From a virus (lineage: Duplodnaviria; Caudoviricetes), in IMG/VR virus record IMGVR_UViG_3300050014_000104, positions 1 to 55,703 of that record: a stretch of DNA of 55,703 nucleotides. One strand, 5' to 3'. The notes under the pieces are model-generated. The model saw only the letters and a list, made by a program, of their open reading frames with translations, had not been told where the DNA came from and made no database searches. Position 1 is the stretch's first letter. The number at the start of each line of letters is the position of its first letter. Position numbers and translations under genes: made by a program. This document shows positions 1 through 55,398 of this stretch, one piece after another.

Positions 1-628
1 TACGCTTAAGGATTATGAACTCCACATGAATCTTGCTAAGGGGAATGTTTTCCTTCTTGCTATAGACCGCCTTGTAGAGGATAAGCTGGCTTGTCTTGGT
101 GAAGTCCTCTTTCGCATTGGCATCCCACTCACGAGTGGCAGTCTTGATGTCAATAATGTGGATGTCACCCGAGAGTTTCTCTTTGATTACAAGGTCGAGG
201 CGGGCGTCCAAGTTGACGTTGTTGACGATGGGCGAGATGAATTTGACTTCGATGCCGATTAGCTCGTATTTGTCTCGGGAGAAGCGAAGTTTGATATTGG
301 CGGGGTCAATGAACTCGGCGATGATGCCTTTACCATCTTCGACAAACTCGTTGAACTCTGCTTCGGTATGCTTGATGCCTTTCATCGTTACCAGTTGCTT
401 GAACTTGGCGGTGAATGGAGTTATCAAATCCATTTTGTAAGCAGCTTCTTCCGAGGTATTGTAATAGGAGACGAGGAAGGATTGAAGTGCTTCGTGGATG
501 GCGGTTCCGAAGGACATATGGATACTATCCTCGAATACTTTTTCTTTCAGGATGTAATCCCTATAAAATTGGTGAGGGCATAACCACCATTTGGAGAACT
601 GGGTGTAGGATACAGTTTTCTTTCTCAT
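1..628 (-). CDS. PD-(D/E)XK (RecB/AddB-like) nuclease, truncated by the window edge
   Basis: Not in the ORF track. Manual translation from ATG 628: MRKKTVSYTQFSKWWLCPHQF...FGTAIHEA...E...ARLDLV...IIDIKT...QLILY, which gives SYSQ/CP, GTxxH, D-DxK and QxxxY motifs. Confidence 0.85.
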   Translation of the reverse strand, partial: MRKKTVSYTQFSKWWLCPHQFYRDYILKEKVFEDSIHMSFGTAIHEALQSFLVSYYNTSEEAAYKMDLITPFTAKFKQLVTMKGIKHTEAEFNEFVEDGKGIIAEFIDPANIKLRFSRDKYELIGIEVKFISPIVNNVNLDARLDLVIKEKLSGDIHIIDIKTATREWDANAKEDFTKTSQLILYKAVYSKKENIPLSKIHVEFIILKR

Positions 629-24895: not shown

Positions 24896-25432
24896 ATGCC
24901 AGCAGCAGCGTCCATACCTCCGTCCCTAACCGATGTGCCGAGTGGCTTTGGCGCACAATCCTCGGGGAATGTTGCTTTCAATGATGAGTACTTCTTCGTG
25001 AAGTATAAGGGTTGGAGACGCTTTCCGCTTGTAACTCCTTCACATTTTCAGTTCGGGTTCCCAAATCCATCGAATAATGGAAACATCTACACTGATAATC
25101 AGTATTTCTATCTCGTTGTCAATCATAAGTGGAAGAAGTTACCCATTTTTGTCATAAAACCGCTTCGACCAGTCATGGGAGATGTTCCCATGATAAACAT
25201 TCGGGAAACAAAACTGACCACTTTCCCTCGGGGTACTGATAATTATGGTAGATGGGGTATGCTTTCCTTCAATGCCGAATATTTCTGCATATGGGGGCAA
25301 GGAAAATGGCATAGGATTCCAGTTGCTCGTTTGCCAAGTCAGAGTTGGGGGCGTGGGGTGGCAATATCATCGCCAGATTCATTTCCTCCGACCGCCGAGA
25401 TAACAATGACGGCTACCGTTATTCAAATATGA
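24896..25432 (+). CDS. fibre-associated repeat protein
   Basis: Three repeats of G.....YF....W.R.P. Confidence 0.55.
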   Translation: MPAAASIPPSLTDVPSGFGAQSSGNVAFNDEYFFVKYKGWRRFPLVTPSHFQFGFPNPSNNGNIYTDNQYFYLVVNHKWKKLPIFVIKPLRPVMGDVPMINIRETKLTTFPRGTDNYGRWGMLSFNAEYFCIWGQGKWHRIPVARLPSQSWGRGVAISSPDSFPPTAEITMTATVIQI

Positions 25433-41648: not shown

Positions 41649-42281
41649 TTACTTGTCTTGGGCAACCAAGAACTGCTTCCAGTCTTGGTGACGAGCCTTG
41701 CGAATCGTGTGAGACACCAAGATAGCCTTGGGCTGTGTAGGCTTGAAGAGCAACGTCAATCCGGCTTCTCTGTTTAACTTGTTGCCTTTCTTGTTGTTGA
41801 TTTCCTTCGTGGTCAACACCGTATTGTCATACGTGTCCGTACCACCACGAGAGAGAGGCAGAACGTGGTCAATCGTGGCCACTTCGTACTCCAAGTCATT
41901 GCCCGTGTAAGGGTCCACACCATTGTCACGGATGAACAAGCCTTCCTTCGTGGGCTTACCCTTGAATTTCTTCTCGGGGATTTTGGCATAGTTCTTCGTG
42001 ATGACAACCGTGGGTACACGGATGTGCATATGAGTGGAATGAATGCTCAAGTCCCAAGGGCGAACCGGAAGTTTCATCCACTCTTCCCAATTGACTGGGT
42101 TCACATACTCGTGTTTGTCGAAGTTGGGTGTGCCGTCTTCGTTGGTCTCGTACACGATGTCCATAGCGACGATGACACCCGTCATCAAGTCACAGATGGA
42201 CTTTGATACCAACTCCACACCGACAGGCTTCCACAGCTTGTTCAGTTTGAGCACTATTGCTTTGTGTGCGATGTCTCTCAT
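41649..42281 (-). CDS. HNH endonuclease (McrA-like)
   Basis: RD....YTG...TIDHVLPLSRGG...N.V.....N..KGN. Confidence 0.85.
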   Translation of the reverse strand: MRDIAHKAIVLKLNKLWKPVGVELVSKSICDLMTGVIVAMDIVYETNEDGTPNFDKHEYVNPVNWEEWMKLPVRPWDLSIHSTHMHIRVPTVVITKNYAKIPEKKFKGKPTKEGLFIRDNGVDPYTGNDLEYEVATIDHVLPLSRGGTDTYDNTVLTTKEINNKKGNKLNREAGLTLLFKPTQPKAILVSHTIRKARHQDWKQFLVAQDK

Positions 42282-42376: not shown

Positions 42377-43225
42377 CTACAAATCCAAGTAACTACCGAT
42401 TTTCAGTTCTTTTCCATTCCAAACCCCATAGTGCATATTGCCATGAACGTCGAGGCAAATGTTGTGTGACAGGTCTGGGTTATCCAGAGAAGTCAAGTAC
42501 GGCTTGAATAAGTCGTACGGACGATAAACAACCTTCCCGTCCTCGTTGAGGGGGTCGTGGTCTAAGATGCACCACTTGACGCCCTGTGCTTGCGGGGTAT
42601 GCCCCACAATCTGATTGATGCCCCGGAGAGGGAAAAACTCCCGCTCGAAGTCGCACCATGTAATCCCACCAACTCGCTGCTGCCCCCAACGGGCACGTCC
42701 AGCGTTAAAGACCCAAGACCCTTTGCTGTTGGCTCCATCTTGGAAACCTTTACGAATCTCATGGTCAAGGTATCCCGTCAGTTCGGCAATGAACTTCGGG
42801 CGGTCCTTACGGAACTTCTTGATGTTGTCGGGCACGTTGAGTTTATGCAACCCACCGTGACTGAGCAGCCATCGGCCATCCAGAAAATGAAACCACTTCA
42901 ACTTGTCCCACAGCTTCGGGTCAATGCTGTCATGGACAATGAAATACTTCCACTGTGCATATCCACTGCACTGAAACGTGCGATAAGGATATGCATAATG
43001 TACATCGTGATTTCCGAACAAGTGAATGCGATTTGGTTTGGCAACCGAGCCAGAAAGCCAGCAGCATGTCTCCCGAAACATTTCGGGTGTATCTGAAAAA
43101 TCATCGAAGTAATCGCCCAAGAAGATTATCTCGTCCGCTCCCACCGAAGCAATTATCTTCTCAGCCCTTTCCCATTTGAGATGGATGTCGGGTATAATCA
43201 GTGTAATCTTGTTTGTATTGCTCAT
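42377..43225 (-). CDS. calcineurin-like metallophosphoesterase
   Basis: DIH, GDYFD, GNHD, SHGG and GHT motifs. Confidence 0.9.
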   Translation of the reverse strand: MSNTNKITLIIPDIHLKWERAEKIIASVGADEIIFLGDYFDDFSDTPEMFRETCCWLSGSVAKPNRIHLFGNHDVHYAYPYRTFQCSGYAQWKYFIVHDSIDPKLWDKLKWFHFLDGRWLLSHGGLHKLNVPDNIKKFRKDRPKFIAELTGYLDHEIRKGFQDGANSKGSWVFNAGRARWGQQRVGGITWCDFEREFFPLRGINQIVGHTPQAQGVKWCILDHDPLNEDGKVVYRPYDLFKPYLTSLDNPDLSHNICLDVHGNMHYGVWNGKELKIGSYLDL

Positions 43226-44006
43226 AGGTTTTCAATTTTCGTTCCAAATATACCACGGAATTGCCATAAAGTAAAGAGCAAAGTTTCATTGCTTTTTTGC
43301 CACTTGTTCTTGCTCGCCATATGTTATGGTCCTCAGAAAGTGTGAGGTTTAGGGACAATGATGATTTTACATAGTCAATGAACCCTTGTATCACCGATTT
43401 GCTTCCACACAATCCGACCTCCAAACTTTTGTATGGATATTGACTATTGACACATACATGCCCGTCTCCATCTACCACGCCACGCCAAAAATGTCGTTGA
43501 AGATGTTTTGGTATGGAGGGCGGAACTGCTGTCAAACTTTTCCTCTCGGTGATGTTATGCATTGATAAGTCCTCACACATTTTTTGACATCGTATTGCTA
43601 ATCTTGCTGTGGGGAAAGGTCCGCCAAATCCCCCTGATATGACTATTTGGTATTTGTTATTCCCTCTGATGGATTTTATAAACTTATCCAAATGTGGTTT
43701 ATCGGACTCTTTGAGTGCAATAATGATGTCTTTACCTCTGCTTATGCATCCATCTGCAAGAATGAACCCTAACCAGTACGCCTTTTCCTCGGTGTCTATT
43801 CGCTCAAAAAATCGCTCGTGGAATGTATAGCGTTTGCTGGTCTGTTGAGTGGTTCTGGTAGGCAATCCGTGGCGACGAACTATGTTGAGTACGGTAGCGA
43901 AATGTACTCCTGTTTGTTTGGATACTCCTATGGAGGATATGCCCTCCGTGTAGAGTTTGACAATTTGGTTTTCTACCTCTGCGGGGGTCTGATTGTATGT
44001 TCTCAT
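43161..44006 (-). CDS. LAGLIDADG homing endonuclease
   Basis: YWLGFILADG and FWRGVVDGDG...YLERK. Confidence 0.9.
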   Translation of the reverse strand: MRTYNQTPAEVENQIVKLYTEGISSIGVSKQTGVHFATVLNIVRRHGLPTRTTQQTSKRYTFHERFFERIDTEEKAYWLGFILADGCISRGKDIIIALKESDKPHLDKFIKSIRGNNKYQIVISGGFGGPFPTARLAIRCQKMCEDLSMHNITERKSLTAVPPSIPKHLQRHFWRGVVDGDGHVCVNSQYPYKSLEVGLCGSKSVIQGFIDYVKSSLSLNLTLSEDHNIWRARTSGKKAMKLCSLLYGNSVVYLERKLKTYEQYKQDYTDYTRHPSQMGKG

Positions 44007-44994: not shown

Positions 44995-45915
44995 TCAATA
45001 ATCAAGCACCGACAGAGTGGGGTCAATGGAAGCCAATGGCATTGGATAGAATGTCTCTCCCGATTCATTTCCAACCACTAATTCCCGATGAATGCGAACC
45101 ACATGCACTTGGGTTACATTGTCAGAATATAGATTTACAAGTGCGAATGCGTGTTTCCAAGCATTCTTTGCTCCACCATTGCTATTATACTCGGCTTTGA
45201 GTTTGGTTAGGCACCCAATACAGTAAGCGGCACGGTCTTCCCAATAATTTCCATCGTATGTCTCCGCAAGGACTTTGTGCTGGTGTCCATAGATAACATT
45301 ATCAAAGTCCTTATACATCCGTTTGACTGAGGCATTGTTGAATCCATGCATCACAATCAATCCTCGTTCCTCTTTGGGTGCTTGAATAATATACATTGAA
45401 TCGGTCTCTCCACCCCAGTACGGAATGTATTGTATGTTCAACTCCTTCCACAATGACCATTTATGGAAGGCGAGATTTTGCGGGTTGTAGTCGGGGTCAT
45501 CAGCAAATTGCTCGAAGATGGGATTAGAGAAGAAGGTACGGGACCATTGGTCATGGTTTCCTTCAAGCTGGACTTTGATTGCCTCGGGGTATTTTTTAGC
45601 AAGGTAATTCCAAAACGCATACGCCATTTTCTTTTGGGCATACCACGATGCCTTGTACCATTTACCATCATTACTTTTGACATTTCCTTCTCGACCTATG
45701 GCTTTTGTCCAATGGGAGATGCAGTCCATTTCCATGAGGTCTCCGATATGGATGATGCCATCAAGTTTGATGTTCTTGGTGTATTGAAGCATCAAGGAGA
45801 TAGCTGCGGGGTGATGACAGAATTGAGGATTGAGATAACTTCCGTCATTACTGGGGGATTGAAAATGCGTATCAGGAATGATAAGCCACGTTTGGAGTTT
45901 TGTTACTTTTTTCAT
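44995..45915 (-). CDS. calcineurin-like metallophosphoesterase
   Basis: PDTH, GD..E.D, EGNHD, HG, GHQH and GCL motifs. Confidence 0.85.
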   Translation of the reverse strand: MKKVTKLQTWLIIPDTHFQSPSNDGSYLNPQFCHHPAAISLMLQYTKNIKLDGIIHIGDLMEMDCISHWTKAIGREGNVKSNDGKWYKASWYAQKKMAYAFWNYLAKKYPEAIKVQLEGNHDQWSRTFFSNPIFEQFADDPDYNPQNLAFHKWSLWKELNIQYIPYWGGETDSMYIIQAPKEERGLIVMHGFNNASVKRMYKDFDNVIYGHQHKVLAETYDGNYWEDRAAYCIGCLTKLKAEYNSNGGAKNAWKHAFALVNLYSDNVTQVHVVRIHRELVVGNESGETFYPMPLASIDPTLSVLDY

Positions 45916-46516: not shown

Positions 46517-47149
46517 ATGATTATTGAGAAAGAAATTGGAACTGGTACAGATTGTATCTATGTTTATTACAATCCGAATGACAAAAAACTTGCGTTGATG
46601 GAAAGCAAAGACCGATGGGAATGCAAGATAGGATTTTCTTCCACTGACCCAGTAAAGCGGATACAGAGTCAGGGGTATCAAACATCTATGGCAAGAGAGC
46701 CAGTCATTGGTCTGGTAATACGGACTACGAATGGTTACTATACTGAATCCTTCATTCATAAGCGTCTTTACAGTTATAGAGTCCCCTCAAAAGTAGGCGG
46801 TGACGAGTGGTTTCTCACGTCTCCCGCCGAAGTTGAATCAATTTTTGTTAATGACATTTTGCCAAATAAAAGTGGAGATACTTACTGCGAATATGAAATC
46901 TCAGATACCAATGACTTTGCTTCGGTGTTAAACTTGCATAGGAAAAAAGTAAATATGACAAATGAAAACCTTTGCAACAAAGTCAAGGTTAGTCGGGATA
47001 CGCTATGGAGACTTTTCCACGGACAGAAAACTGTGTGCCTTTCAACTGTATTCAAGGTGTTAAATGAATTGGATTTAGACATTACGTTAAAATCAAAACT
47101 TCCTGCTGACAAAATAAAGATTCATACATCGGCTCGTAAGGCACGTTAG
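46517..47149 (+). CDS. GIY-YIG (T5orf172-like) nuclease fused to an XRE HTH
   Basis: IYVY...KIGFS..DP..RI...E..IH...EWF; C-terminal HTH. Confidence 0.75.
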   Translation: MIIEKEIGTGTDCIYVYYNPNDKKLALMESKDRWECKIGFSSTDPVKRIQSQGYQTSMAREPVIGLVIRTTNGYYTESFIHKRLYSYRVPSKVGGDEWFLTSPAEVESIFVNDILPNKSGDTYCEYEISDTNDFASVLNLHRKKVNMTNENLCNKVKVSRDTLWRLFHGQKTVCLSTVFKVLNELDLDITLKSKLPADKIKIHTSARKAR

Positions 47150-47172: not shown

Positions 47173-47254
47173 TGGTCAGCGCAACGGGACTTGAACCACG
47201 TAAACCTCCACTATGTATTAGACAGTGGCGCTCTGCCAATTGAGCTATGCGCTG
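47173..47254 (-). tRNA. atypical tRNA-like gene (7-bp anticodon stem with AAU, or 11-nt loop containing CUA)
   Basis: CAGCGCA/TGCGCTG-A-CCA acceptor, GCTC/GAGC D arm, CCACTGT-CTAATAC-ATAGTGG, bulged T stem with TTCAAGT loop. Confidence 0.7.
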
Positions 47255-47256
47255 GT

Positions 47257-47362
47257 TGGTCAACGAGGTAGGAATCGAACCTACGGCCCCGTGCATGTGT
47301 AGCACCACAGAATTCACTGTGCGGATTATTAGTCCGGCGCTCTTCCACTGAGCTACTCGTTG
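47257..47362 (-). tRNA. atypical tRNA (anticodon AAU) with a 31-nt insertion
   Basis: CAACGAG/CTCGTTG-A-CCA; CCGGA-CTAATAA-TCCG[31 nt]G; GTAGG-TTCGATT-CCTAC. Confidence 0.75.
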
Positions 47363-47364
47363 AT

Positions 47365-47444
47365 TGGCGGGGCACCGAGGACTCGAACCTCGAACCTTCA
47401 TTGCATTGCTGCAATGCTGCTCTATCCCATTGAGCTAATGCCCC
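47365..47444 (-). tRNA. tRNA-like gene with a non-canonical anticodon arm
   Basis: GGGGCAT/GTGCCCC-G-CCA with canonical D and T arms; the arm GCATTGCAGCAATGCAATG gives no 7-nt U33 loop. Confidence 0.7.
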
Positions 47445-47794: not shown

Positions 47795-47944
47795 ATGGGA
47801 AGAAAATCATTAAATAGGACACCCGATGAACAACGAACAACCATCAACGAGCGTAGAATGCGATATTACTGGAAACACCGCAAACAGGAGCGAGCCAATG
47901 CTCTCAAGCGATATTATAGAAAAAAAGACGTGTGCCAAATGTAA
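47795..47944 (+). CDS. small basic MGRK-family peptide overlapping an endonuclease
   Basis: MGRKSLNRTPDEQRTTINERRMRYYWKH...; TATTTAT 5 nt upstream; paralog at 55214-55438. Confidence 0.65.
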   Translation: MGRKSLNRTPDEQRTTINERRMRYYWKHRKQERANALKRYYRKKDVCQM

Positions 47945-48464
47945 ATTGGATTTGCCGTTGGAAATGTTTAGCATACGCAATAGAAATAATAGTACGTTGA
48001 ATTGTTATTGTAAGTTATGCCAACCTGTGATTGCTCATAATTGGCGGATAAATAATTTGGGTAAAGTGAAGTGTCGGGAGAAATTATATCGCCGAGATAA
48101 TAAGGATAAAATCCAACGGCAGCAGAAAGAATATATGACACGGTGGATTGCCAGATTAAACTCTCGATTCGGCAGATGGAAAAAGAGTGCCCATCGGCGA
48201 GGAATTTCATTTGATTTAACTTTGGTGCAATTGGAAACAATGCCATTGTTATGTCATTATACTGGAAATGTATTGACGTTGGAAAGTAACAGACGGAATA
48301 CAGTTTCGTTGGATAGATTGGATTCTTCGCAGGGGTACACCATAACCAATGTAGTTTATTGCTGTTCGTTTGTAAATCTAATGAAGCATGAATTATCATA
48401 TAGTGATTTTGTTAATTCTTGTAAAGCAATTGTCGGTCATTATGAAAAATGTCATAAGAGTTGA
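47826..48464 (+). CDS. HNH-like homing endonuclease
   Basis: KTCAKC...YCKLC; CHYTG...SLDRLDSSQGY...NVVYCCSFVNLMK. Confidence 0.85.
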   Translation: MNNEQPSTSVECDITGNTANRSEPMLSSDIIEKKTCAKCKLDLPLEMFSIRNRNNSTLNCYCKLCQPVIAHNWRINNLGKVKCREKLYRRDNKDKIQRQQKEYMTRWIARLNSRFGRWKKSAHRRGISFDLTLVQLETMPLLCHYTGNVLTLESNRRNTVSLDRLDSSQGYTITNVVYCCSFVNLMKHELSYSDFVNSCKAIVGHYEKCHKS

Positions 48465-48844
48465 AAGTGTTTTGTTATATGTTTTATATCATTTTTCATA
48501 GCAGGGCCAAGGCCCAAAGCTGTAATGGTGGGTTCGCCACCGAAAAAGTTAGGACAACCTGAATCGGTCACTAAGTACGTGGAGATGCCCGCAGCCTCGG
48601 CTTCTTCTTTAGCACGAAGAAGGTGATGGAGGTTTTTGGCTTCGAGGCAAACTTTGGTGCCGGGGTGAGTGGGATACTCGGCGTGATACTCCTTTTGAAG
48701 GTCGGAGTTAGCATTAAGAAATGCACCGAGATAAGCATGGCCAGCTTGAGAGGCAATCTTGCCTGTGTCCATGCCAAGGTCCATACGCACGATGGAGTAC
48801 AAACGGAGAGTGGAGTCGGAAACCTATGTGAAAGTATTATTCAT
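48452..48844 (-). CDS. pth2: peptidyl-tRNA hydrolase type 2 with an in-frame TAG at codon 7
   Basis: VRMDLGM.TGKIASQAGHA...KVCL...V.DSG...T.T.LGLGP...ITKHFQLL; ATG 48844 is coupled to the upstream stop; TAG at 48824-48826. Confidence 0.85.
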
Positions 48845-49202
48845 TTGGGTGCTTCTCTTTCCAATGAAGTTTGTTGTGACAATTGGAACACATCACGTCA
48901 CACTTGTTTATCTCTTTAAGAAGACGGGGTATGCTCCATCCACGCAGAACGGCAAGCGAGACCTCTATGTCTTTTTGAGATGGGTCTCTATGATGGAATA
49001 GCAAACAAGAAATGTGAGATTCTCCGCAGGGGCAAACGAGTTTGGATTTATAATCCGACATCCACTGTTTAATCTGAATAAGGCGTTTTGCCTTATTCTG
49101 TAAGTTGATGGCAATGAGGCGAGTGCGATTTTTCAAGTAAAATCGGCGAGCACATTGTTTGGATTTTTTAAGACCTTCGGGAGTAGATTTATTGTACGGC
49201 AT
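48837..49202 (-). CDS. HNH endonuclease
   Basis: CPCGE....L.FHH.DP..K...E..KCDVMCSNCH..LH; TATTTAT 5 nt upstream. Confidence 0.85.
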   Translation of the reverse strand: MPYNKSTPEGLKKSKQCARRFYLKNRTRLIAINLQNKAKRLIQIKQWMSDYKSKLVCPCGESHISCLLFHHRDPSQKDIEVSLAVLRGWSIPRLLKEINKCDVMCSNCHNKLHWKEKHPNE

Positions 49203-49260
49203 ATACAATAAATAGGGAGGAAGGGACATAAACCACGAAGATAGTTTAATATCCCGAGAT

Positions 49261-49337
49261 TGGCGCTCCATATCGGATTCGAACCGATACAGACAATGGG
49301 TTAGAGCCATCCGCTCTGGCCGTTGAGCTAATGGAGC
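49261..49337 (-). tRNA. amber-suppressor tRNA (anticodon CUA)
   Basis: GCTCCAT/ATGGAGC-G-CCA; GCTC/GAGC; GATGG-CTCTAAC-CCATT; ATCGG-TTCGAAT-CCGAT. Clean 77-nt cloverleaf. Confidence 0.9.
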
Positions 49338-49349
49338 GTGGAATGAAAC

Positions 49350-49388
49350 CTATGTCGGACTGTTGCCATTCATAAATGTATTATTCAT
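49350..49388 (-). CDS. leader peptide MNNTFMNGNSPT ending in TAG
   Basis: Starts 10 nt after the -10 box, ends 12 nt before the suppressor tRNA, and matches the pth2 5' end. Confidence 0.65.
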   Translation of the reverse strand: MNNTFMNGNSPT

Positions 49389-49398
49389 TATGCCTATA

Positions 49399-49426
49399 AC
49401 TATAACACAGGTTAGGGAAATGTCAA
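49399..49426 (-). promoter_or_regulatory. sigma70-like promoter for the leader-tRNA(CUA)-pth2 unit
   Basis: TTGACA-16-TATAGT with TGn extension. Confidence 0.75.
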
Positions 49427-49449
49427 ATACTTTCGCAAAAAATCTTTGC

Positions 49450-49809
49450 CTACTTGGCAAAGGGGTTGATAATGAGGGACTTGGCCTTCTTTTCCCAGCC
49501 TGCGTTATTCATCTCTTCCTCGGAAATGAGGTTGATGTTCTCGTGCAGAGTCATAAGCATCACGGTGACGCCCTTCTCCCGCAGTTTGGCTGCGTATGGG
49601 GCGAGAAGTTTGGAGAAGACGGGTGCCACTGCCATCTTTTGAATTGGGTTCTCCACGTCAATGTTGATGACGAGAATCGAGTTGGGCTTGATGTCATCAA
49701 TGTTGATGGTTGTCACCCTATCGGCGGGCAATTGCAACTCGCTCGGGGGTTCGGCGGTTGTGATAAGTGCGGGGTTAAGGGGCGGTTGTTGTTCTTGGGG
49801 TTGGGTCAT
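49450..49809 (-). CDS. hypothetical protein
   Basis: ORF in the minus-strand run. Confidence 0.65.
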   Translation of the reverse strand: MTQPQEQQPPLNPALITTAEPPSELQLPADRVTTINIDDIKPNSILVINIDVENPIQKMAVAPVFSKLLAPYAAKLREKGVTVMLMTLHENINLISEEEMNNAGWEKKAKSLIINPFAK

Positions 49810-49987: not shown

Positions 49988-50282
49988 AGGTGCGTCTCCA
50001 TCGGGCATCATACAGCTTGGCGAGTACATCTCGGTGCCACGACATGCGACGAACGAGAGACTTCATCTTTCGATGCATACCCCATGCGGCAAAGAAGCCA
50101 TGAACTTCTTCTTTGGCGAGGGCAGTAAGCTGGGCGCTCATGCGGAGATACTCGCCCTCAACTTCGAGGATACGAGCATCAATTCCGCTGCAACACCGCT
50201 TTTCCTCAGCGAGGATAGCTTTCATGTAATCATTACCCGCCAGAAACGGCAGGTTAGCTACGTTGAAATGTGGGGCATTCAT
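49980..50282 (-). CDS. hypothetical protein
   Basis: ATGA coupling to the kinase gene. Confidence 0.55.
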   Translation of the reverse strand: MNAPHFNVANLPFLAGNDYMKAILAEEKRCCSGIDARILEVEGEYLRMSAQLTALAKEEVHGFFAAWGMHRKMKSLVRRMSWHRDVLAKLYDARWRRTYG

Positions 50283-50755
50283 ATTTTGTGTACGAAAACC
50301 ACTTCATCGAACTCGGGAACTTCGGGACGCTGATAGCGAGCCAGCATATCATCAATGACCTTTTCGGGCACATTGCGGCCACCCTCAGACCCACGCTTGG
50401 CGTTACGGCCCACGAGGACAGACTTCTCACACTCAAAGACTTCGGCAATCACCTTGGCCCCTCGGCCTCGGGCGATGTTGATAAAGTCCTTGCGGGCTTT
50501 ACGATACATATTGGTCGCATCGAAGATTACGCATTTTCCTTCGCCCAAAGCCTTCTTCATTTGGTCCTTGGCGAGGCAGAAAGCGGGGTACGATACCGTT
50601 TGGTCGTGGGAACCCTTTCCAAGAATACGGCGGTTATCGTCGGGGCAAACCCGTACAATGCGAGGGTCGCCCTCAGTGAGGACTTTGCCAAATGTGGTCT
50701 TTCCGCTGCCCGGAGCACCCACCAGTATCCAAACCACTAGCTGTTCTGTTTTCAT
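50279..50755 (-). CDS. AAA_33 / polynucleotide-kinase-like P-loop protein
   Basis: LVGAPGSGKTT...D..R...VIFDATN...R...RN..R...VP. Confidence 0.9.
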   Translation of the reverse strand: MKTEQLVVWILVGAPGSGKTTFGKVLTEGDPRIVRVCPDDNRRILGKGSHDQTVSYPAFCLAKDQMKKALGEGKCVIFDATNMYRKARKDFINIARGRGAKVIAEVFECEKSVLVGRNAKRGSEGGRNVPEKVIDDMLARYQRPEVPEFDEVVFVHKI

Positions 50756-50762
50756 CGTGGTC

Positions 50763-50791
50763 AATATAACCCACTACTTCGATTCTGTCAA
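50763..50791 (-). promoter_or_regulatory. sigma70-like promoter, leaderless
   Basis: TTGACA-17-TATATT; ATG 7 nt downstream. Confidence 0.65.
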
Positions 50792-51597: not shown

Positions 51598-52647
51598 TTA
51601 CTTTTTCTTACGCTCAATGTCGAACATAGGATTGAGGACTTTTCCTGACCAGACTTTCTTGAGTACTCCGCTCGTAAATCCTTCTTGCGGACGAACAACT
51701 ACGCCCTCGGCGGGGAAGCCATTTGGATACTTTTGCTCGCTGGCGAATTTCACCAACTCTTCAATGTTGAACCCAAACGCTGTACCCTCACCAATGGTAG
51801 TAACCATTGTGAGACAGTGGTCTTTGCAGAATTGAGTAAGCTTCTCGTAGTTCAAGTAGCCCCGAGTTTTGATGTCGAAGAGATTGAAAACGTGTAGTTC
51901 CAACTCCGTTAGGCCAAGATGATTGTCTTGGATGCCGGGACCGCAGACCTCGCCTTGAATGGCCATAGCTTGGTTAGGGAATGCTGCCTTAATGACGTTC
52001 GCAAGGTCATATTTGCGAGCCATACGCCAGAATCCATTACCCTCGCTTTCTTTCAGGTGAATGCGTCGGCTGCAAACACCAAACTCGTCTGCATTGACGA
52101 AGAAGGTGCCAGAGCAGCCATCATCTTTACGAGTGATGTAGTACGGGCGTCCCCACAATTCCTCAAGGGCAGTAGGATAAGTACGCAGATTGTCCTCGTC
52201 GGTCATGATAAGGAACCCGGGGAGCATACCGACAGCTTGACCAGCCAACTCGGCCGGGATAGGTTTTTCGTAATGGATAACGCTAAGTTTATCGGTGACA
52301 TCTTCACCTTCATTTACCAAGTAGAAATATGGACCATCTGGCAACAAATCAGTGCAAGGTTTTCGTGAAACTTTATCGCCGAGAATGCTCAGAGGAAAGC
52401 AGATTCCCGCACTTTCCTCTCCCCTCAACCGAATTGGTTTAATCCTAAAGTGTTTGTTTCGCAGAAATTCAAACTCAGGAGTTTCAGGAACTACCGAATC
52501 TATGCAGATATAAACACATAAATCCCCCGCCTTGAATTCTCCTTTTTTGACGACGACGTTCCACCCCAATACCTTTGCGATTTCAAGTGCGTCCGCATTA
52601 TTATGCGGAAGAATTTCTCGTATTTTTTGTACTGTTGCTTCTTTCAT
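51598..52647 (-). CDS. RNA ligase (DRB0094/Rnl5-like)
   Basis: N-terminal OB-like NADALE...GW.VVVKKGEF; motif I KDDGCS, QGEVCGPGIQ.N, F.LFD, EGVV.R. Confidence 0.9.
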   Translation of the reverse strand: MKEATVQKIREILPHNNADALEIAKVLGWNVVVKKGEFKAGDLCVYICIDSVVPETPEFEFLRNKHFRIKPIRLRGEESAGICFPLSILGDKVSRKPCTDLLPDGPYFYLVNEGEDVTDKLSVIHYEKPIPAELAGQAVGMLPGFLIMTDEDNLRTYPTALEELWGRPYYITRKDDGCSGTFFVNADEFGVCSRRIHLKESEGNGFWRMARKYDLANVIKAAFPNQAMAIQGEVCGPGIQDNHLGLTELELHVFNLFDIKTRGYLNYEKLTQFCKDHCLTMVTTIGEGTAFGFNIEELVKFASEQKYPNGFPAEGVVVRPQEGFTSGVLKKVWSGKVLNPMFDIERKKK

Positions 52648-53465
52648 AATTTACAGCCCAATCTATGTTGTTCGGAGGAACTATAACCTAACCATGTCAT
52701 TTTGTCAAGTCCAAGATTCCGCAGTTTTTTGTATATGCCGTGATTGAATCCCAATTTTTCTTTTTTGTAATTGCCAAATGCCATTCCAGTAAATTCTTTG
52801 AATTTATTTATTATTGTTGGGCACGAGACACCATATTCCTCAGAAATATCTCGGATGGTTAGAAGTGGAAACTCATGAATTTTTTTTATGATTTCTTCTA
52901 CTGGAATTTCTCGGAAACTTGGATTTTCCTTTCCTGTCCACCGAATTTTATGCATTTCTTTGAGTTTATTGGAAATTGATGGCGTCATTACTTCTTCATA
53001 TTTTTTCCCCCGCCGTGCTACAGATAATTTTTTCTTGGTGATGGATGTATGATGTTGTCCGAAGAAATGATGAAGTTCTCCGAACTTGCCTTCGGTAGGA
53101 TTTGGTGGGGGTGGATGAGTCTGAAAATATTTTTTCAGAGTTTCGCTTATGCGTCGTTTGTATTCCTCCGACCGAATTCCATTTTCTCCCCCCTCGGTGA
53201 GGTTGTATCCGACTGACTGGTCCATAGAGTTGTAATACTTAATCCAATGCTTTTCTCGCTCTCCACTTTCGGATACATTGCATATTTCTACAGTTTCTAT
53301 CGTAAAGTTTTTCTCTCCGTATTTGTTGATAGCAGCGTATAAGTGGCGTCGGTCATGCCATTTTGCTTCGTTGAGATGTTTCCGCCATCGTTTTGCGATG
53401 GTTGAGCTTGTCTTACCAATATAAATTTTGCCGTTTGTTTGGTTGGTTATTTTGTAGATTAACAT
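52644..53465 (-). CDS. GIY-YIG homing endonuclease
   Basis: IYKITNQTNGKIYIGKT...R...H...AINKYG..NF...E..WI...GYN...GG. Confidence 0.9.
   Translation of the reverse strand: MLIYKITNQTNGKIYIGKTSSTIAKRWRKHLNEAKWHDRRHLYAAINKYGEKNFTIETVEICNVSESGEREKHWIKYYNSMDQSVGYNLTEGGENGIRSEEYKRRISETLKKYFQTHPPPPNPTEGKFGELHHFFGQHHTSITKKKLSVARRGKKYEEVMTPSISNKLKEMHKIRWTGKENPSFREIPVEEIIKKIHEFPLLTIRDISEEYGVSCPTIINKFKEFTGMAFGNYKKEKLGFNHGIYKKLRNLGLDKMTWLGYSSSEQHRLGCKL
52680..52708 (-). promoter_or_regulatory. sigma70-like promoter for the RNA ligase, inside the endonuclease 3' end
   Basis: TTGACA-17-TATAGT. Confidence 0.7.
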
Positions 53466-54442: not shown

Positions 54443-54741
54443 GAATGAAAATATCAAAGTCCAAGCCTCTTTCACGGAAAAGACTGTTATCTCTAATAGA
54501 TAATGAATTGCACGAATTAAGAGCCGTGGCTGAATCGTTATCCGAGAAAATTGGAGATGGGGAGAGAAGGTTTGTATTCAAAACTATGGTCCCAACATCA
54601 ACTGATGGTTCTGTAATAGCAAATATTCGTAACAATCTATCACACATTAGATGTTGTATCAATTCTATTGCGTGTGGGACAGATAATAGACGGATTCTCG
54701 ACAGTCCACCAGCAATAACGGGGACGAAGACCCGCCAGTAA
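54439..54741 (+). CDS. hypothetical protein
   Basis: ATGA-coupled; the 3' end overlaps a convergent endonuclease. Confidence 0.45.
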   Translation: MRMKISKSKPLSRKRLLSLIDNELHELRAVAESLSEKIGDGERRFVFKTMVPTSTDGSVIANIRNNLSHIRCCINSIACGTDNRRILDSPPAITGTKTRQ

Positions 54742-55398
54742 ATAATATGGGTTAACCCCCGTTTTCTTTCGGAAATCAAACTGCGTGCCCGTGAAATACT
54801 CATTGGTATGGCAATTGAAAAATTTGTGAATGGTGGGAGTTCTTTGAGCTATGCTTTGTCTCTCTCGTTGTTCTGTGGTAAACACTTGTCTTTTGCGTGC
54901 CTCTTTGATTTTCTGTATGGTGTCTCGGCGGTGGTGTTTACCGAACATTACGTTTCGTGACCCTTTGTGAGACCCCGACATTTTTTCTTTGGTTTCATTG
55001 GTGTGTAATCTTCCCCGCATAGGGGCAACAGCATCGTAAGATATGTTATAGGAAGAATTTGGGCAGGATTTACATATGTCTAAATAAGACTGCTCTATAG
55101 TTAGAAGGCGTGCGGGTTCCGCTACCTCTACAATTATAAATTGAAATGCATCTTCTCCATACTTATTCCACGCATTTTGTAGATGTGAGTTCTCATGGCG
55201 GTTTCCATCCAGTCTATTGTAGTGGATTTGCCATCGGCGGTATAATTGGTCCGAACTGCCCACATAATACTTCCCGTTTACCGTGTTGACTATTTTGTAT
55301 ATGCCGCTTGTTTCGCCAGTATCTTGCCCGTGCTTTTTTCCGCTCTCGGGGAGCGTGCTTCCAGTAAGACCGCATTCGGTATTTTCGGTTGAGTTCAT
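54640..55398 (-). CDS. GIY-YIG homing endonuclease with NUMOD3 repeats (start uncertain)
   Basis: GIYKIVNTVNGKYYVGSS...HLQNAWNKYG...YN...HTNETKEKMS...MFGKHH. Confidence 0.9.
   Translation of the reverse strand: MNSTENTECGLTGSTLPESGKKHGQDTGETSGIYKIVNTVNGKYYVGSSDQLYRRWQIHYNRLDGNRHENSHLQNAWNKYGEDAFQFIIVEVAEPARLLTIEQSYLDICKSCPNSSYNISYDAVAPMRGRLHTNETKEKMSGSHKGSRNVMFGKHHRRDTIQKIKEARKRQVFTTEQRERQSIAQRTPTIHKFFNCHTNEYFTGTQFDFRKKTGVNPYYLLAGLRPRYCWWTVENPSIICPTRNRIDTTSNV

What the first reader, a model, noticed from the sequence alone, without database searches (positions are those of the whole stretch)
48452..49426. Amber-gated pth2 controlled by a neighbouring amber-suppressor tRNA
Seen: the pth2 frame does not start at the TTG in the ORF track. 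It extends to ATG 48844, which overlaps the upstream stop (ATGAATAA), and reads ATG AAT AAT ACT TTC ACA TAG GTT TCC GAC... (MNNTFT*VSDSTLRLYSIVRMD). A canonical tRNA(CUA) lies about 420 nt upstream on the same strand, with only an HNH gene between them. The same ATGAATAATAC...ACA-TAG-GTTTC cassette recurs in front of that tRNA, which argues against a sequencing error. Established: Pth2 recycles dropped-off peptidyl-tRNA; short minigenes such as lambda bar cause drop-off; RF2 is autoregulated through an internal stop. Inference: Pth2 is made only when the suppressor out-competes RF1 at UAG. This would be a local stop-codon switch in a genome that is otherwise not recoded, with MNNTFT* as the OFF-state minigene.
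Basis: partly seen in the sequence, partly recalled or inferred. Interest (0 to 1): 0.92.

Follow-up and report, generated by a model that had tools for sequence, protein, structure and literature searches.

The report
Amber-gated phage Pth2 with suppressor tRNA
A phage gene for a tRNA-recycling enzyme (Pth2) can only be translated by reading through a UAG stop codon near its start, and the phage carries the matching stop-reading tRNA right beside it; the same arrangement recurs in dozens of related phages, so it looks like a built-in translational switch, not an error.

Summary
The pth2 frame runs from ATG 48844 through TAG 48826-48824 into a full PTH2 domain. A canonical tRNA(CUA) lies upstream at 49337-49261, and the leader/TAG cassette recurs before it. 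Of 82 distinct related loci with enough upstream sequence, 77 have an in-frame TAG (never TAA or TGA) 6-22 codons before the conserved Pth2 N-terminus. The context is fixed: ACR-TAG-GTT. The codons between TAG and the supposed TTG start evolve as coding sequence. That TTG is only a Leu codon (TTG in 14 of 85 loci; CTC in near-identical strains). In 75 of 77 loci no start codon lies between the TAG and that codon. A tRNA(CUA) lies upstream on the same strand in 49 of 55 loci. In 15 loci the tRNA gene sits inside the open frame, between two TAGs. Some relatives have CAG (Gln) at these positions. The window's genome is otherwise standard code. Two cultured jumbo phages show matching pairs: Phosso (TAG with tRNA-CUA) and Atu_ph07 (TGA with tRNA-UCA). 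Best reading: Pth2 synthesis depends on the suppressor. The biological purpose is inferred only. My literature searches found no report of this arrangement.

The parts
49444..49462 (-). Terminator-like hairpin followed by a T-run. It closes the upstream 119-aa gene, whose TAG stop lies inside the hairpin.
   Evidence: Consensus scan; sequence.
49399..49426 (-). Sigma-70-type promoter: TTGACA, 16 nt, TATAGT, preceded by TG. The -10 box ends 10 nt before the leader ATG, so the mRNA is near-leaderless.
   Evidence: 11 of 12 matches. The same promoter is seen in relatives L083, L003, L005 and L006.
49350..49388 (-). Leader mini-ORF, ATG then MNNTFMNGNSPT then TAG. This is the distal amber gate, with motif ACATAGGTT. 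Beyond the TAG its frame stays open through the tRNA and the HNH gene for 170 codons.
   Evidence: Homologous leaders in L083 and L016.
49261..49337 (-). tRNA with anticodon CUA (amber suppressor), a 7-nt anticodon loop CUCUAAC, discriminator G and an encoded CCA.
   Evidence: In the family of 59 distinct tRNA(CUA) sequences, 19 of 20 stem pairs show compensatory changes.
48837..49232 (-). HNH homing endonuclease ORF, in the same frame as the leader and tRNA. It is absent from the closest relatives L083 and L003, so it is an insertion. Its TAA overlaps the pth2 ATG.
   Evidence: phrog_2255, 5.2e-21.
48824..48844 (-). pth2 start, ATG then MNNTFT then TAG. This is the proximal amber gate, with motif ACATAGGTT.
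   Evidence: The same ATGAATAATACTTTCACGTAG follows an AGGAGG Shine-Dalgarno in L004. The TAG is kept in contigs from samples X3 and X4.
48452..48823 (-). Pth2 coding sequence after the gate (VSDSTLR LYSIVRMDLGM ... then stop). TTG 48802-48800 is an internal Leu codon, not the start.
   Evidence: Pfam PTH2, 1.8e-24. Solved archaeal Pth2 aligns from its residue 2 with TLRLYSIVR. Codon statistics. TTG becomes CTC in near-identical strains.

Best explanation
pth2 is a suppressor-dependent gene.

**Shown by sequence**
- A strong sigma-70-type promoter drives a near-leaderless leader ORF that ends at UAG just before a tRNA(CUA) gene.
- After an inserted HNH gene, pth2 starts at ATG 48844 and meets a second UAG at codon 7.
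- It then runs into a complete PTH2 domain with no usable start codon in between.

**Inferred**
- Without the phage tRNA(CUA), RF1 ends translation after 6 codons and no Pth2 is made.
- Once the tRNA has accumulated, it decodes UAG and Pth2 is made. The inserted residue is probably Gln. The ACR-UAG-GUU context has a purine at +4, which favours suppression.
- Pth2 output is therefore tied to suppressor activity, either as a delay timer or as a feed-forward link.
- Pth2 then recycles peptidyl-tRNAs during infection. This function is assigned by homology.
- In the window, the pth2 ATG is probably reached by translational coupling from the HNH ORF (ATGAATAA overlap).
For: **Conserved gate.** 77 of 82 distinct related loci have TAG as the first in-frame upstream stop, 6-22 codons before the conserved N-terminus. 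It is never TAA or TGA.

**Fixed context.**
- Thr codon before the TAG in 58 of 77 loci. Its third base is G in 51, A in 23, C in 3 and T in 0.
- G at +4 in 70 of 77.
- Val codon after the TAG in 59 of 77.

**Motif is tied to this frame.** ACRTAGGT occurs 99 times in the 700 nt upstream of pth2, and 95 of those are in frame. Only 8 copies occur elsewhere in 288,815 bases on both strands.

**The segment after the TAG is translated.**
- Arg at -1 is kept in 33 of 33 loci, using CGT, AGG, CGG, CGA and AGA.
- Third codon positions vary most.
- A solved archaeal Pth2 aligns with this segment from its residue 2.

**No alternative start.**
- 75 of 77 loci have no ATG, GTG or TTG between the TAG and the codon aligned with TTG 48802.
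- That codon is TTG in only 14 of 85 loci.
- It reads CTC in contigs from samples X3 and X4.

**An ATG always leads in.** Among 62 loci with a TAG and an upstream tRNA(CUA):
- 47 have an in-frame ATG between the tRNA and the TAG;
- the other 15 all keep the tRNA in an open frame joined to an ATG upstream of it;
- none has neither.

**The tRNA partner.**
- A tRNA(CUA) lies upstream on the same strand in 49 of 55 loci with at least 700 nt of flank.
- 19 of its 20 stem pairs show compensatory changes.

**Sense alternates.** CAG (Gln) replaces TAG in P0049, P0029, P0110 and P0017 and in L078/L079.

**Standard code elsewhere.** The window is not recoded outside this locus.

**Matching stop and anticodon in cultured phages.**
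- Phosso: ATG AAG TAT TAG GTT, plus two tRNA(CUA) genes.
- Atu_ph07: ATG, five codons, then TGA, plus a tRNA(UCA) (the paper's passages).

**Context favours suppression.** A purine at +4 improves amber suppression (PMC6266110, passages read).
Against: - There is no expression, proteomic or ribosome data. The one RNA-library contig laid (X22) covers only a related tRNA in a different context.
- The tRNA's amino-acid identity is unknown. Acceptor stems and discriminator bases differ among loci.
- The window's ATG 48844 has only a weak Shine-Dalgarno-like stretch and no promoter of its own, so its use rests on coupling, which is inferred.
- 11 of 77 loci, the window among them, do have TTG at the aligned codon, so some initiation there cannot be excluded.
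- 6 of 55 loci have no tRNA(CUA) in the flank held.
- The loci are related to each other, so the counts are not independent events.
- The benefit of tying Pth2 to a suppressor is not explained by any result here.
Confidence: 0.8

Rival explanations
1. The TAG is a true stop of a regulatory upstream mini-ORF. Pth2 initiates downstream (TTG 48802 here, GTG or ATG elsewhere) by coupling or reinitiation, independently of the tRNA.
For: - The window has TTG at 48802, as do 11 of 77 loci.
- GTG sits at codon +4 in 40 of 85 loci and ATG at +10 in 84 of 85.
- Gene callers in public data chose such starts, giving proteins of 106-112 aa.
Against: - The aligned codon is CTN, TTA or ATY in most loci, and CTC in near-identical strains.
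- The 7 codons before it are under protein-level selection.
- Those codons align with the N-terminus of solved Pth2.
- Starting at +4 or +10 would delete the first conserved strand.
- GTG directly after the TAG is avoided: G is the third base of that codon in 1 of 77 loci.
- This reading does not explain why the stop is always TAG, or why a tRNA(CUA) travels with the gene.
Confidence: 0.08
2. ACRTAGGTT is a DNA- or RNA-level signal, such as a processing site, a homing or recombination site for a mobile tRNA cassette, or a promoter element. Its TAG is incidental.
For: - The motif is constrained beyond the amino-acid level: ACG or ACA but never ACT, and GTT in 61 of 77.
- It flanks the tRNA as a direct repeat.
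- Homing endonucleases are frequent at these loci.
Against: - 95 of 99 copies are in frame with pth2, and the motif is essentially absent elsewhere in the loci.
- It is not enriched in the window.
- There is no conserved RNA structure around it.
- Most loci have no endonuclease next to it.
- Relatives with CAG in place of TAG keep the same frame.
Confidence: 0.05
3. The suppressor serves broader recoding, with many TAG-containing genes or programmed C-terminal extensions. pth2 would be only one client among them.
For: - Phage suppressor tRNAs are known from TAG-recoded phages (bioRxiv 10.1101/2021.08.26.457843, passages read).
- Several window genes end in TAG (9 of 75 crude ORF calls).
Against: - Reading TAG as sense gains no more coding than reading TGA as sense. 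In the window the coding fractions are 0.939 and 0.929, against 0.910 under the standard code. In 28 flanks the means are 0.91 and 0.94, against 0.84.
- No same-strand split gene was found other than at this locus.
- The one motif-like site, at 25312, lies upstream of the true ATG 25429.
- The in-frame TAG at 50776 lies between two separate genes, and the second has its own ATG.
Confidence: 0.05
4. The gene is a pseudogene, or the TAG is an assembly error.
For: None beyond the presence of a stop codon.
Against: - The TAG is conserved in 77 of 82 loci.
- It is unchanged in contigs from two other samples.
- The domain downstream is intact.
Confidence: 0.01

Closest known systems
Stop-codon reassignment in phages (TAG read as Gln, 'code 15'; crAss-like, Lak and other gut phages), with phage suppressor tRNAs proposed to time late and lysis genes
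   Same: A phage-encoded tRNA(CUA) reads in-frame TAG in phage genes within a standard-code host. The in-frame stop is proposed to act as a post-transcriptional gate (bioRxiv 10.1101/2021.08.26.457843, passages read).
   Different: - Here only one gene carries the TAGs, and the rest of the genome uses the standard code.
- There are 1-2 TAGs, placed at the extreme 5' end in a fixed ACR-TAG-GTT context.
- The tRNA is adjacent to the gated ORF, or nested inside it.
- The client gene is a translation-maintenance enzyme, not a structural or lysis gene.
prfB (RF2) autoregulation through an early in-frame stop codon
   Same: An early in-frame stop in a translation-factor gene makes the gene's output depend on how the ribosome resolves that stop. 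(Recalled knowledge.)
   Different: prfB uses a +1 frameshift at UGA and senses its own product. Here the frame continues in phase 0 after the UAG, a dedicated tRNA does the decoding, and Pth2 is not known to act at the stop.
Lambda bar minigenes and host Pth
   Same: Both are very short ORFs of 2-7 codons ending in a stop, expressed from strong promoters and linked to peptidyl-tRNA hydrolase biology. Some relatives have ATG ACG TAG directly after a promoter. (The bar biology is recalled.)
   Different: bar minigenes are free-standing and are toxic to Pth-deficient hosts. Here the mini-ORF is in frame with pth2 and continues into it when the stop is suppressed. Drop-off or toxicity was not tested.
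Phage suppressor tRNAs with no known client (XacN1 tRNA-CUA, Atu_ph07 tRNA-UCA)
   Same: These are standard-code phages that carry suppressor tRNAs. Their authors could not name target genes (PMC5852040; PMC6102473; passages read).
   Different: - In Atu_ph07 I find a TGA at codon 7 of the extended pth2 frame, matching its tRNA(UCA).
- XacN1's pth2 has an ordinary start, so its suppressors remain unexplained.
tRNA genes co-transcribed with protein genes (for example the E. coli tufB operon and phage tRNA clusters)
   Same: A tRNA and an mRNA come from one promoter. (Recalled knowledge.)
   Different: In 15 relatives the tRNA gene lies inside the open reading frame, in phase and between two TAGs, with the only ATG upstream of it. 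I know of no described case like this.

Membership tests
PTH2 peptidyl-tRNA hydrolase (Pfam PF01981) | Profile match above the curated cut-off, over the whole domain | tested here: met
   86.6 bits against a cut-off of 23. Residues 1-116 match profile positions 3-115 of 115.
PTH2 peptidyl-tRNA hydrolase (Pfam PF01981) | Sequence similarity to solved Pth2 structures, including the N-terminal strand | tested here: met
   1rzw at 8e-12, 1xty at 2.4e-10 and human Bit1 (1q7s) at 3e-8. The alignment starts at chain residue 2 and pairs with TLRLYSIVR.
PTH2 peptidyl-tRNA hydrolase (Pfam PF01981) | Catalytic residues present | tested here: inconclusive
   K15, D80 and the GHA and DSGC motifs are invariant across 25 relatives. 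That these are the catalytic Lys and Asp is recalled from memory and was not checked against a structure here.
PTH2 peptidyl-tRNA hydrolase (Pfam PF01981) | Hydrolysis of peptidyl-tRNA | not testable with these tools
   This needs an enzyme assay.
Elongator amber-suppressor tRNA | Cloverleaf that scores as a tRNA | tested here: met
   Rfam RF00005, 58.7 bits against 29. Also called by ARAGORN.
Elongator amber-suppressor tRNA | Anticodon CUA in a 7-nt loop, kept across relatives | tested here: met
   Loop is CUCUAAC in the window and CUCUAAA in most of the 59 distinct relatives. The anticodon columns are invariant.
Elongator amber-suppressor tRNA | Stems maintained by compensatory changes, indicating a functional RNA | tested here: met
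   19 of 20 predicted pairs show changes on both sides.
Elongator amber-suppressor tRNA | Aminoacylation, and which residue is inserted at UAG | not testable with these tools
   - Gln is suggested by CAG alternates.
- Discriminator bases (A, G or T) and acceptor stems vary among loci.
- The short variable arm argues against bacterial Tyr, Leu or Ser identity (those identity rules are recalled).
Genome-wide TAG reassignment (code 15 phage) | Many genes interrupted by in-frame TAG, with coding density restored when TAG is read as sense | tested here: not met
   TAG-as-sense gives no gain specific to TAG, and no other split gene was found.
Pyrrolysine system (ARAGORN labels the tRNA 'Pyl') | PylRS and pylBCD genes, and the atypical tRNA-Pyl structure | not tested
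   ARAGORN's label follows the anticodon only. The tRNA fits the general tRNA model well. None of the 25 ORFs I scanned was an aminoacyl-tRNA synthetase, but the whole genome was not scanned.
prfB-type programmed frameshift | Change of reading frame at the stop codon | tested here: not met
   The conserved Pth2 frame continues in phase 0 directly after the TAG.

The most novel reading that the evidence does not exclude
In the ancestral form of this module, a suppressor tRNA gene is nested in phase inside the very ORF that needs it. The layout is promoter, leaderless ATG, a few codons, UAG, tRNA(CUA), UAG, then pth2, and it is kept in 15 relatives.

Each transcript would then have two mutually exclusive fates:
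- **Suppressor scarce:** the ribosome stops at the first UAG. The tRNA folds and is cut out, which leaves pth2 without a start codon.
- **Suppressor abundant:** ribosomes read through and travel across the tRNA sequence. This blocks tRNA maturation, and they go on through the second UAG to make Pth2.

The result would be a self-limiting suppressor homeostat coupled to Pth2 output, with a squared (two-gate) dependence on suppressor level.

The window would be a derivative of this form. An HNH gene has been inserted in the same frame, and pth2 is re-started by an overlapping ATG and a copy of the leader.

The switch of stop codon and anticodon together in cultured jumbo phages (TAG with CUA in Phosso, TGA with UCA in Atu_ph07) suggests that the pairing itself is what selection maintains.
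Probability: 0.3. Interest if true: 0.9.

Novelty: new variant of a known kind. Interest (0 to 1): 0.82.

Why it matters
- **A client for orphan suppressors.** It gives a concrete client gene for suppressor tRNAs in standard-code phages. The authors of two jumbo-phage genome papers left that question open.
- **Minimal recoding.** It shows recoding in its smallest form: one gene, one or two UAGs and one adjacent tRNA. This could be either a seed or a remnant of genome-wide recoding.
- **Annotation.** Public gene calls for this Pth2 clade start at different internal codons and are therefore N-terminally truncated (106-112 aa proteins; Phosso and Atu_ph07 CDS starting at Met11).
- **A natural amber context.** The fixed ACR-UAG-GUU context may be useful for engineered amber suppression.
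- **Genomic setting.** The module sits among RNA-repair genes (polynucleotide kinase, RNA ligase, phosphoesterases) and tRNAs. This points to a role in keeping translation running during infection.
- **Testability.** It can be tested directly in a cultured phage of a harmless host (Phosso on Sinorhizobium meliloti).

Tried and rejected
- **Nucleotide search of the phage collection** with the locus: no match.
- **Conserved RNA structure around the TAG** (33 loci in register): RNAalifold gave none, and single-sequence z-scores were unremarkable.
- **Motif as a general promoter or site:** not enriched in the window and rare outside the pth2 leader in the loci.
- **Other amber-gated or TAG-split genes in the window**:
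  - The site at 25312 is upstream of the real start, ATG 25429.
  - The site at 50776 separates two genes, and the second has its own ATG.
  - The site at 45080 lacks the motif.
- **Crude code test on 28 flanks:** no gain specific to TAG.
- **Distant phage Pth2 genes have ordinary starts,** so the gate is clade-specific. This holds for XacN1, phiM12, RsoM2USA, EBPR siphovirus 2, Kikimora, SCTP-2, Phabba and LR756511.
- **Relatives of the no-TAG clade** (P0011, 'MKNDN...'): sought in viral contigs to ask whether they lack the tRNA, but no close locus was found. L009, the only member held, has just 446 nt of flank.
- **Read laying:** only Logan contigs were available, not raw reads.
  - The X22 RNA-library contig covers a related tRNA in another context and says nothing about expression.
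  - Stretches without cover in X2-X4 say nothing.
- **Initiator-tRNA reading of UAG:** rejected. The tRNA has a G1:C72 pair and only two G:C pairs in the anticodon stem (the initiator features are recalled).
Full report
**1. The window and the observation**

The window is a complete record in itself: a 55,703-base phage contig with 44% G+C. The features below are all on the minus strand and were read directly:
- a hairpin-plus-T-run that closes the upstream gene (49462-49444);
- a sigma-70-type promoter, TTGACA-16-TATAGT with an upstream TG (49426-49399; 11 of 12 matches);
- ten bases later, a leader ORF: ATG 49388, then MNNTFMNGNSPT, then TAG 49352-49350;
- twelve bases after that, a tRNA with anticodon CUA (49337-49261; ARAGORN; Rfam 58.7 bits against a gathering score of 29);
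- an HNH endonuclease ORF (phrog_2255, 5e-21) ending at TAA 48839-48837;
- overlapping that stop (ATGAATAA), ATG 48844, then MNNTFT, then TAG 48826-48824;
- then GTT TCC GAC TCC ACT CTC CGT TTG(48802) and a full PTH2 domain (Pfam 1.8e-24) running to 48452.

**2. Does coding really extend upstream of the TTG?**

Yes, on four grounds.
- A solved archaeal Pth2 (1rzw) aligns from its second residue with TLRLYSIVR. The three residues before the TTG are therefore part of the fold's N-terminus.
- Public relatives carry the conserved N-terminal stretch (S/P/Q)DPTLRLY.
- I fetched 95 related loci, using peptide patterns from the C-terminal half of the protein, so the choice was blind to the N-terminus. 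With the window these collapse to 85 distinct sequences.
  - The codon aligned with the window's TTG is CTT in 28, CTC in 17, TTG in 14, TTA in 11 and CTG in 8, with 7 others. It is a Leu codon, not a start.
  - In the 33 loci in exact register, the Arg codon just before it is Arg in all 33, spelled CGT, AGG, CGG, CGA or AGA.
  - For every codon between the TAG and that Leu except the first (the Val codon next to the TAG), the third position varies most. This is protein-level selection.
- Contigs from two other samples (X3, X4) that are near-identical to the window read CTC at 48802-48800. Their other differences are synonymous or move toward the family consensus (S to P, S to A). They show no difference at 48824-48826. 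These are assembled contigs, not raw reads.

**3. The gate is conserved**

- Of 82 distinct loci with at least 75 nt upstream, 77 have TAG as the first in-frame upstream stop, 6-22 codons before that Leu. It is never TAA or TGA.
- Three of the five exceptions (L007, L021, L079) still have a TAG further upstream in the same frame. L009 has an ordinary ATG start. L042 is a short contig with neither.
- In 75 of the 77 there is no ATG, GTG or TTG between the TAG and the Leu codon.
  - The first canonical start is that Leu codon (TTG) in 11 loci.
  - In the other 64 it lies 2-10 codons into the conserved domain.
- The context is fixed at nucleotide level, giving ACR-TAG-GTT.
  - The preceding codon is Thr in 58 of 77. 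Its third base is G in 51, A in 23, C in 3 and T in 0.
  - The base after the TAG is G in 70 of 77.
  - The next two bases are T in 60 and 61 of 77.
- Many loci have a second, more distal TAG with the same context: Thr before in 41 of 64 and Val after in 41 of 64.
- ACRTAGGT occurs 99 times within 700 nt upstream of pth2, and 95 of those are in frame. It occurs only 8 times elsewhere in 288,815 bases on both strands.
- It is not enriched in the window.
- No conserved RNA structure surrounds it.
- The motif therefore acts as an in-frame codon context, not as a general DNA or RNA site.
- A purine at +4 is the classical context that favours amber suppression (PMC6266110, passages read).
- G is almost absent from the third position of the codon after the TAG (1 of 77). 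This fits avoidance of a GTG start that would bypass the gate.

**4. The tRNA partner**

- A tRNA(CUA) lies upstream on the same strand in 49 of 55 loci with at least 700 nt of flank. It is usually 25-300 nt away.
- The 59 distinct tRNA sequences keep the anticodon invariant. 19 of 20 stem pairs show compensatory changes. These are functional tRNAs.
- Among 62 loci with both a TAG and an upstream tRNA(CUA):
  - 47 have an in-frame ATG between the tRNA and the TAG;
  - the remaining 15 have none, and in all 15 the tRNA gene itself lies in an open frame (no TAA or TGA) joined to an ATG upstream of the tRNA, with a first TAG before the tRNA;
  - no locus lacks both.
- In the longest such cases the frame is open for 120-145 codons, while the other two frames hold 5-8 hard stops (L005, L016).
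- An ATG-initiated frame that runs through the TAG(s) is therefore under selection.
- In 26 of 75 loci the initiating ATG sits 4-10 nt after a TTGnnn-16..18-TAnnnT promoter, against 83 of 4,414 control ATGs. This implies leaderless or near-leaderless mRNAs.
- The shortest leaders are ATG ACG TAG and ATG TAG.

**5. Which residue is inserted?**

- Where relatives have a sense codon at the gate, it is CAG (Gln): P0049 and P0029 (two sites each), P0110 and P0017, and L078/L079 beside TAG-bearing near-identical loci.
- The tRNAs have short variable arms and varied acceptor stems and discriminator bases.
- Gln is my best guess. The identity rules behind it are recalled, not tested.

**6. Is the genome recoded elsewhere?**

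No.
- Reading TAG as sense raises crude coding density no more than reading TGA as sense does, both in the window and in 28 flanks.
- No other same-strand gene is split by a TAG.
- A scan for ATG-few-codons-TAG in front of long frames gave only false leads.

**7. Why two cassettes in the window?**

- The closest relatives (L083/L001 and L003, 84-86% identical Pth2) have no HNH gene.
- Their layout is promoter, leader, TAG, tRNA, TAG, pth2, all in one frame.
- L004 has an AGGAGG Shine-Dalgarno followed by ATGAATAATACTTTCACGTAG and pth2.
- The window combines the first arrangement's 5' part with an L004-like start, and has an HNH gene in between.
- That HNH gene stays in phase with the leader and tRNA for 170 codons, and its stop overlaps the pth2 ATG.

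**8. Reach beyond this clade**

- Eight more distant phage Pth2 genes have ordinary starts: XacN1, phiM12, RsoM2USA, EBPR siphovirus 2, Kikimora, SCTP-2, Phabba and LR756511.
- Two cultured jumbo phages do show the gate.
  - Phosso (host Sinorhizobium meliloti) has AGGAG, then ATG AAG TAT TAG GTT, 40 codons before the conserved core. Its annotated CDS starts at Met11. It has two tRNA(CUA) genes.
  - Atu_ph07 has ATG, five codons, then TGA in the same frame, and a tRNA(UCA).
    - ARAGORN found no tRNA(CUA) among the tRNA hits I scanned, but three Rfam tRNA hits were not typed, so I cannot say CUA is absent.
    - Its authors reported the UCA suppressor without naming a target (PMC6102473, passages read).
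- XacN1's authors could not find targets for its CUA suppressors (PMC5852040, passages read). XacN1's pth2 is not gated.
- Two contigs binned with Verrucomicrobiota MAGs carry the module. This is only a weak hint of the host.

**9. Mechanism**

*Shown by sequence:* the promoter, the ATG, the in-frame UAG(s) in a fixed context, the adjacent or nested tRNA(CUA), the intact Pth2 domain, and the absence of an alternative start.

*Inferred:*
- RF1 terminates at the UAG until the phage tRNA accumulates.
- After that, read-through yields Pth2. With two gates the dependence on suppressor level would be steeper.
- In the nested form, tRNA maturation and translation of the same transcript should exclude each other.

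*Purpose (inferred, and weakest).* The possibilities are:
- a delay timer;
- a feed-forward link that scales peptidyl-tRNA recycling to suppressor activity;
- a read-out of termination capacity.

The module lies beside a polynucleotide kinase (50279-50764), an RNA ligase (51598-52647), phosphoesterases and three more tRNAs. That is an RNA-repair and translation-maintenance neighbourhood.

**10. Novelty**

- Eight full-text searches were run, of which five asked for this arrangement or for phage Pth2, one for leaderless amber cases (58), one for Atu_ph07 (73) and one for suppression context (91). Passages from five papers were read. None reports an amber- or opal-gated pth2 or a tRNA nested in the ORF it serves.
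- I file it as a new variant of phage stop-codon recoding.

**11. Limits**

- There are no expression data.
- The loci are related to each other, so the counts are not independent events.
- Only the best 80 of 145 metagenome hits were kept.

Noticed in passing
window 47173-47444 (- strand): Three further tRNA-like genes are odd.
- Two have an AAU anticodon in a CUAAUA loop. One of these (47260-47362) carries an extra arm or insert of about 33 nt and is missed by ARAGORN but scores 57 bits in Rfam.
- One (47365-47444) has an 8-nt anticodon loop, called 'gcaa'. The 'gcaa' tRNA is also present in relative L001.
   Followed up: partly
window 50279-50764, 51598-52647, 42377-43225, 44995-45915 (- strand): An RNA-repair set lies next to the tRNA/pth2 region:
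- polynucleotide kinase (phrog_505);
- RNA ligase (PF09414 plus the PHA02142 OB domain);
- two calcineurin-like phosphoesterases.

This resembles a kit for healing and sealing cleaved tRNAs.
   Followed up: partly
window 41649-42281, 43161-44006, 46517-47149, 47826-48464, 48837-49232, 52644-53465, 54640-55398: Homing-endonuclease-type genes are unusually dense in about 14 kb:
- HNH, twice;
- LAGLIDADG-like;
- T5orf172;
- an endonuclease VII/HNH-like gene on the opposite strand directly after pth2;
- GIY-YIG, twice.

Relative L001 lacks at least the two that flank pth2.
   Followed up: partly
L097 (Agrobacterium phage Atu_ph07) 1105-1563; L108: The pth2 homolog is annotated from Met11. Its conserved frame extends upstream to ATG ATT GGC GAA CAC TTT TGA. 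The phage has a tRNA(UCA) about 230 kb away. This looks like an opal version of the same gate.
   Followed up: partly
L110 (Sinorhizobium phage Phosso) 269-763; L116, L112: The pth2 CDS is annotated from Met11. Upstream lies AGGAG, then ATG AAG TAT TAG GTT in frame. There are two tRNA(CUA) genes, one about 4.6 kb upstream on the same strand.
   Followed up: partly
L011, L086/L085: These loci carry two tandem tRNA(CUA) genes of different sequence upstream of the gated pth2.
   Followed up: no
window 50774-50776 (- strand): The 153-aa phrog_1479 ORF ends in TAG and is in frame with the polynucleotide kinase ORF, which starts 7 codons later. With a suppressor present, some fusion protein could form. 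The kinase has its own ATG, so this is probably chance.
   Followed up: partly
L036, about 406-477 nt upstream of pth2, opposite strand: ARAGORN calls a tRNA with anticodon UCA (labelled SeC) near the tRNA(CUA)/pth2 module.
   Followed up: no
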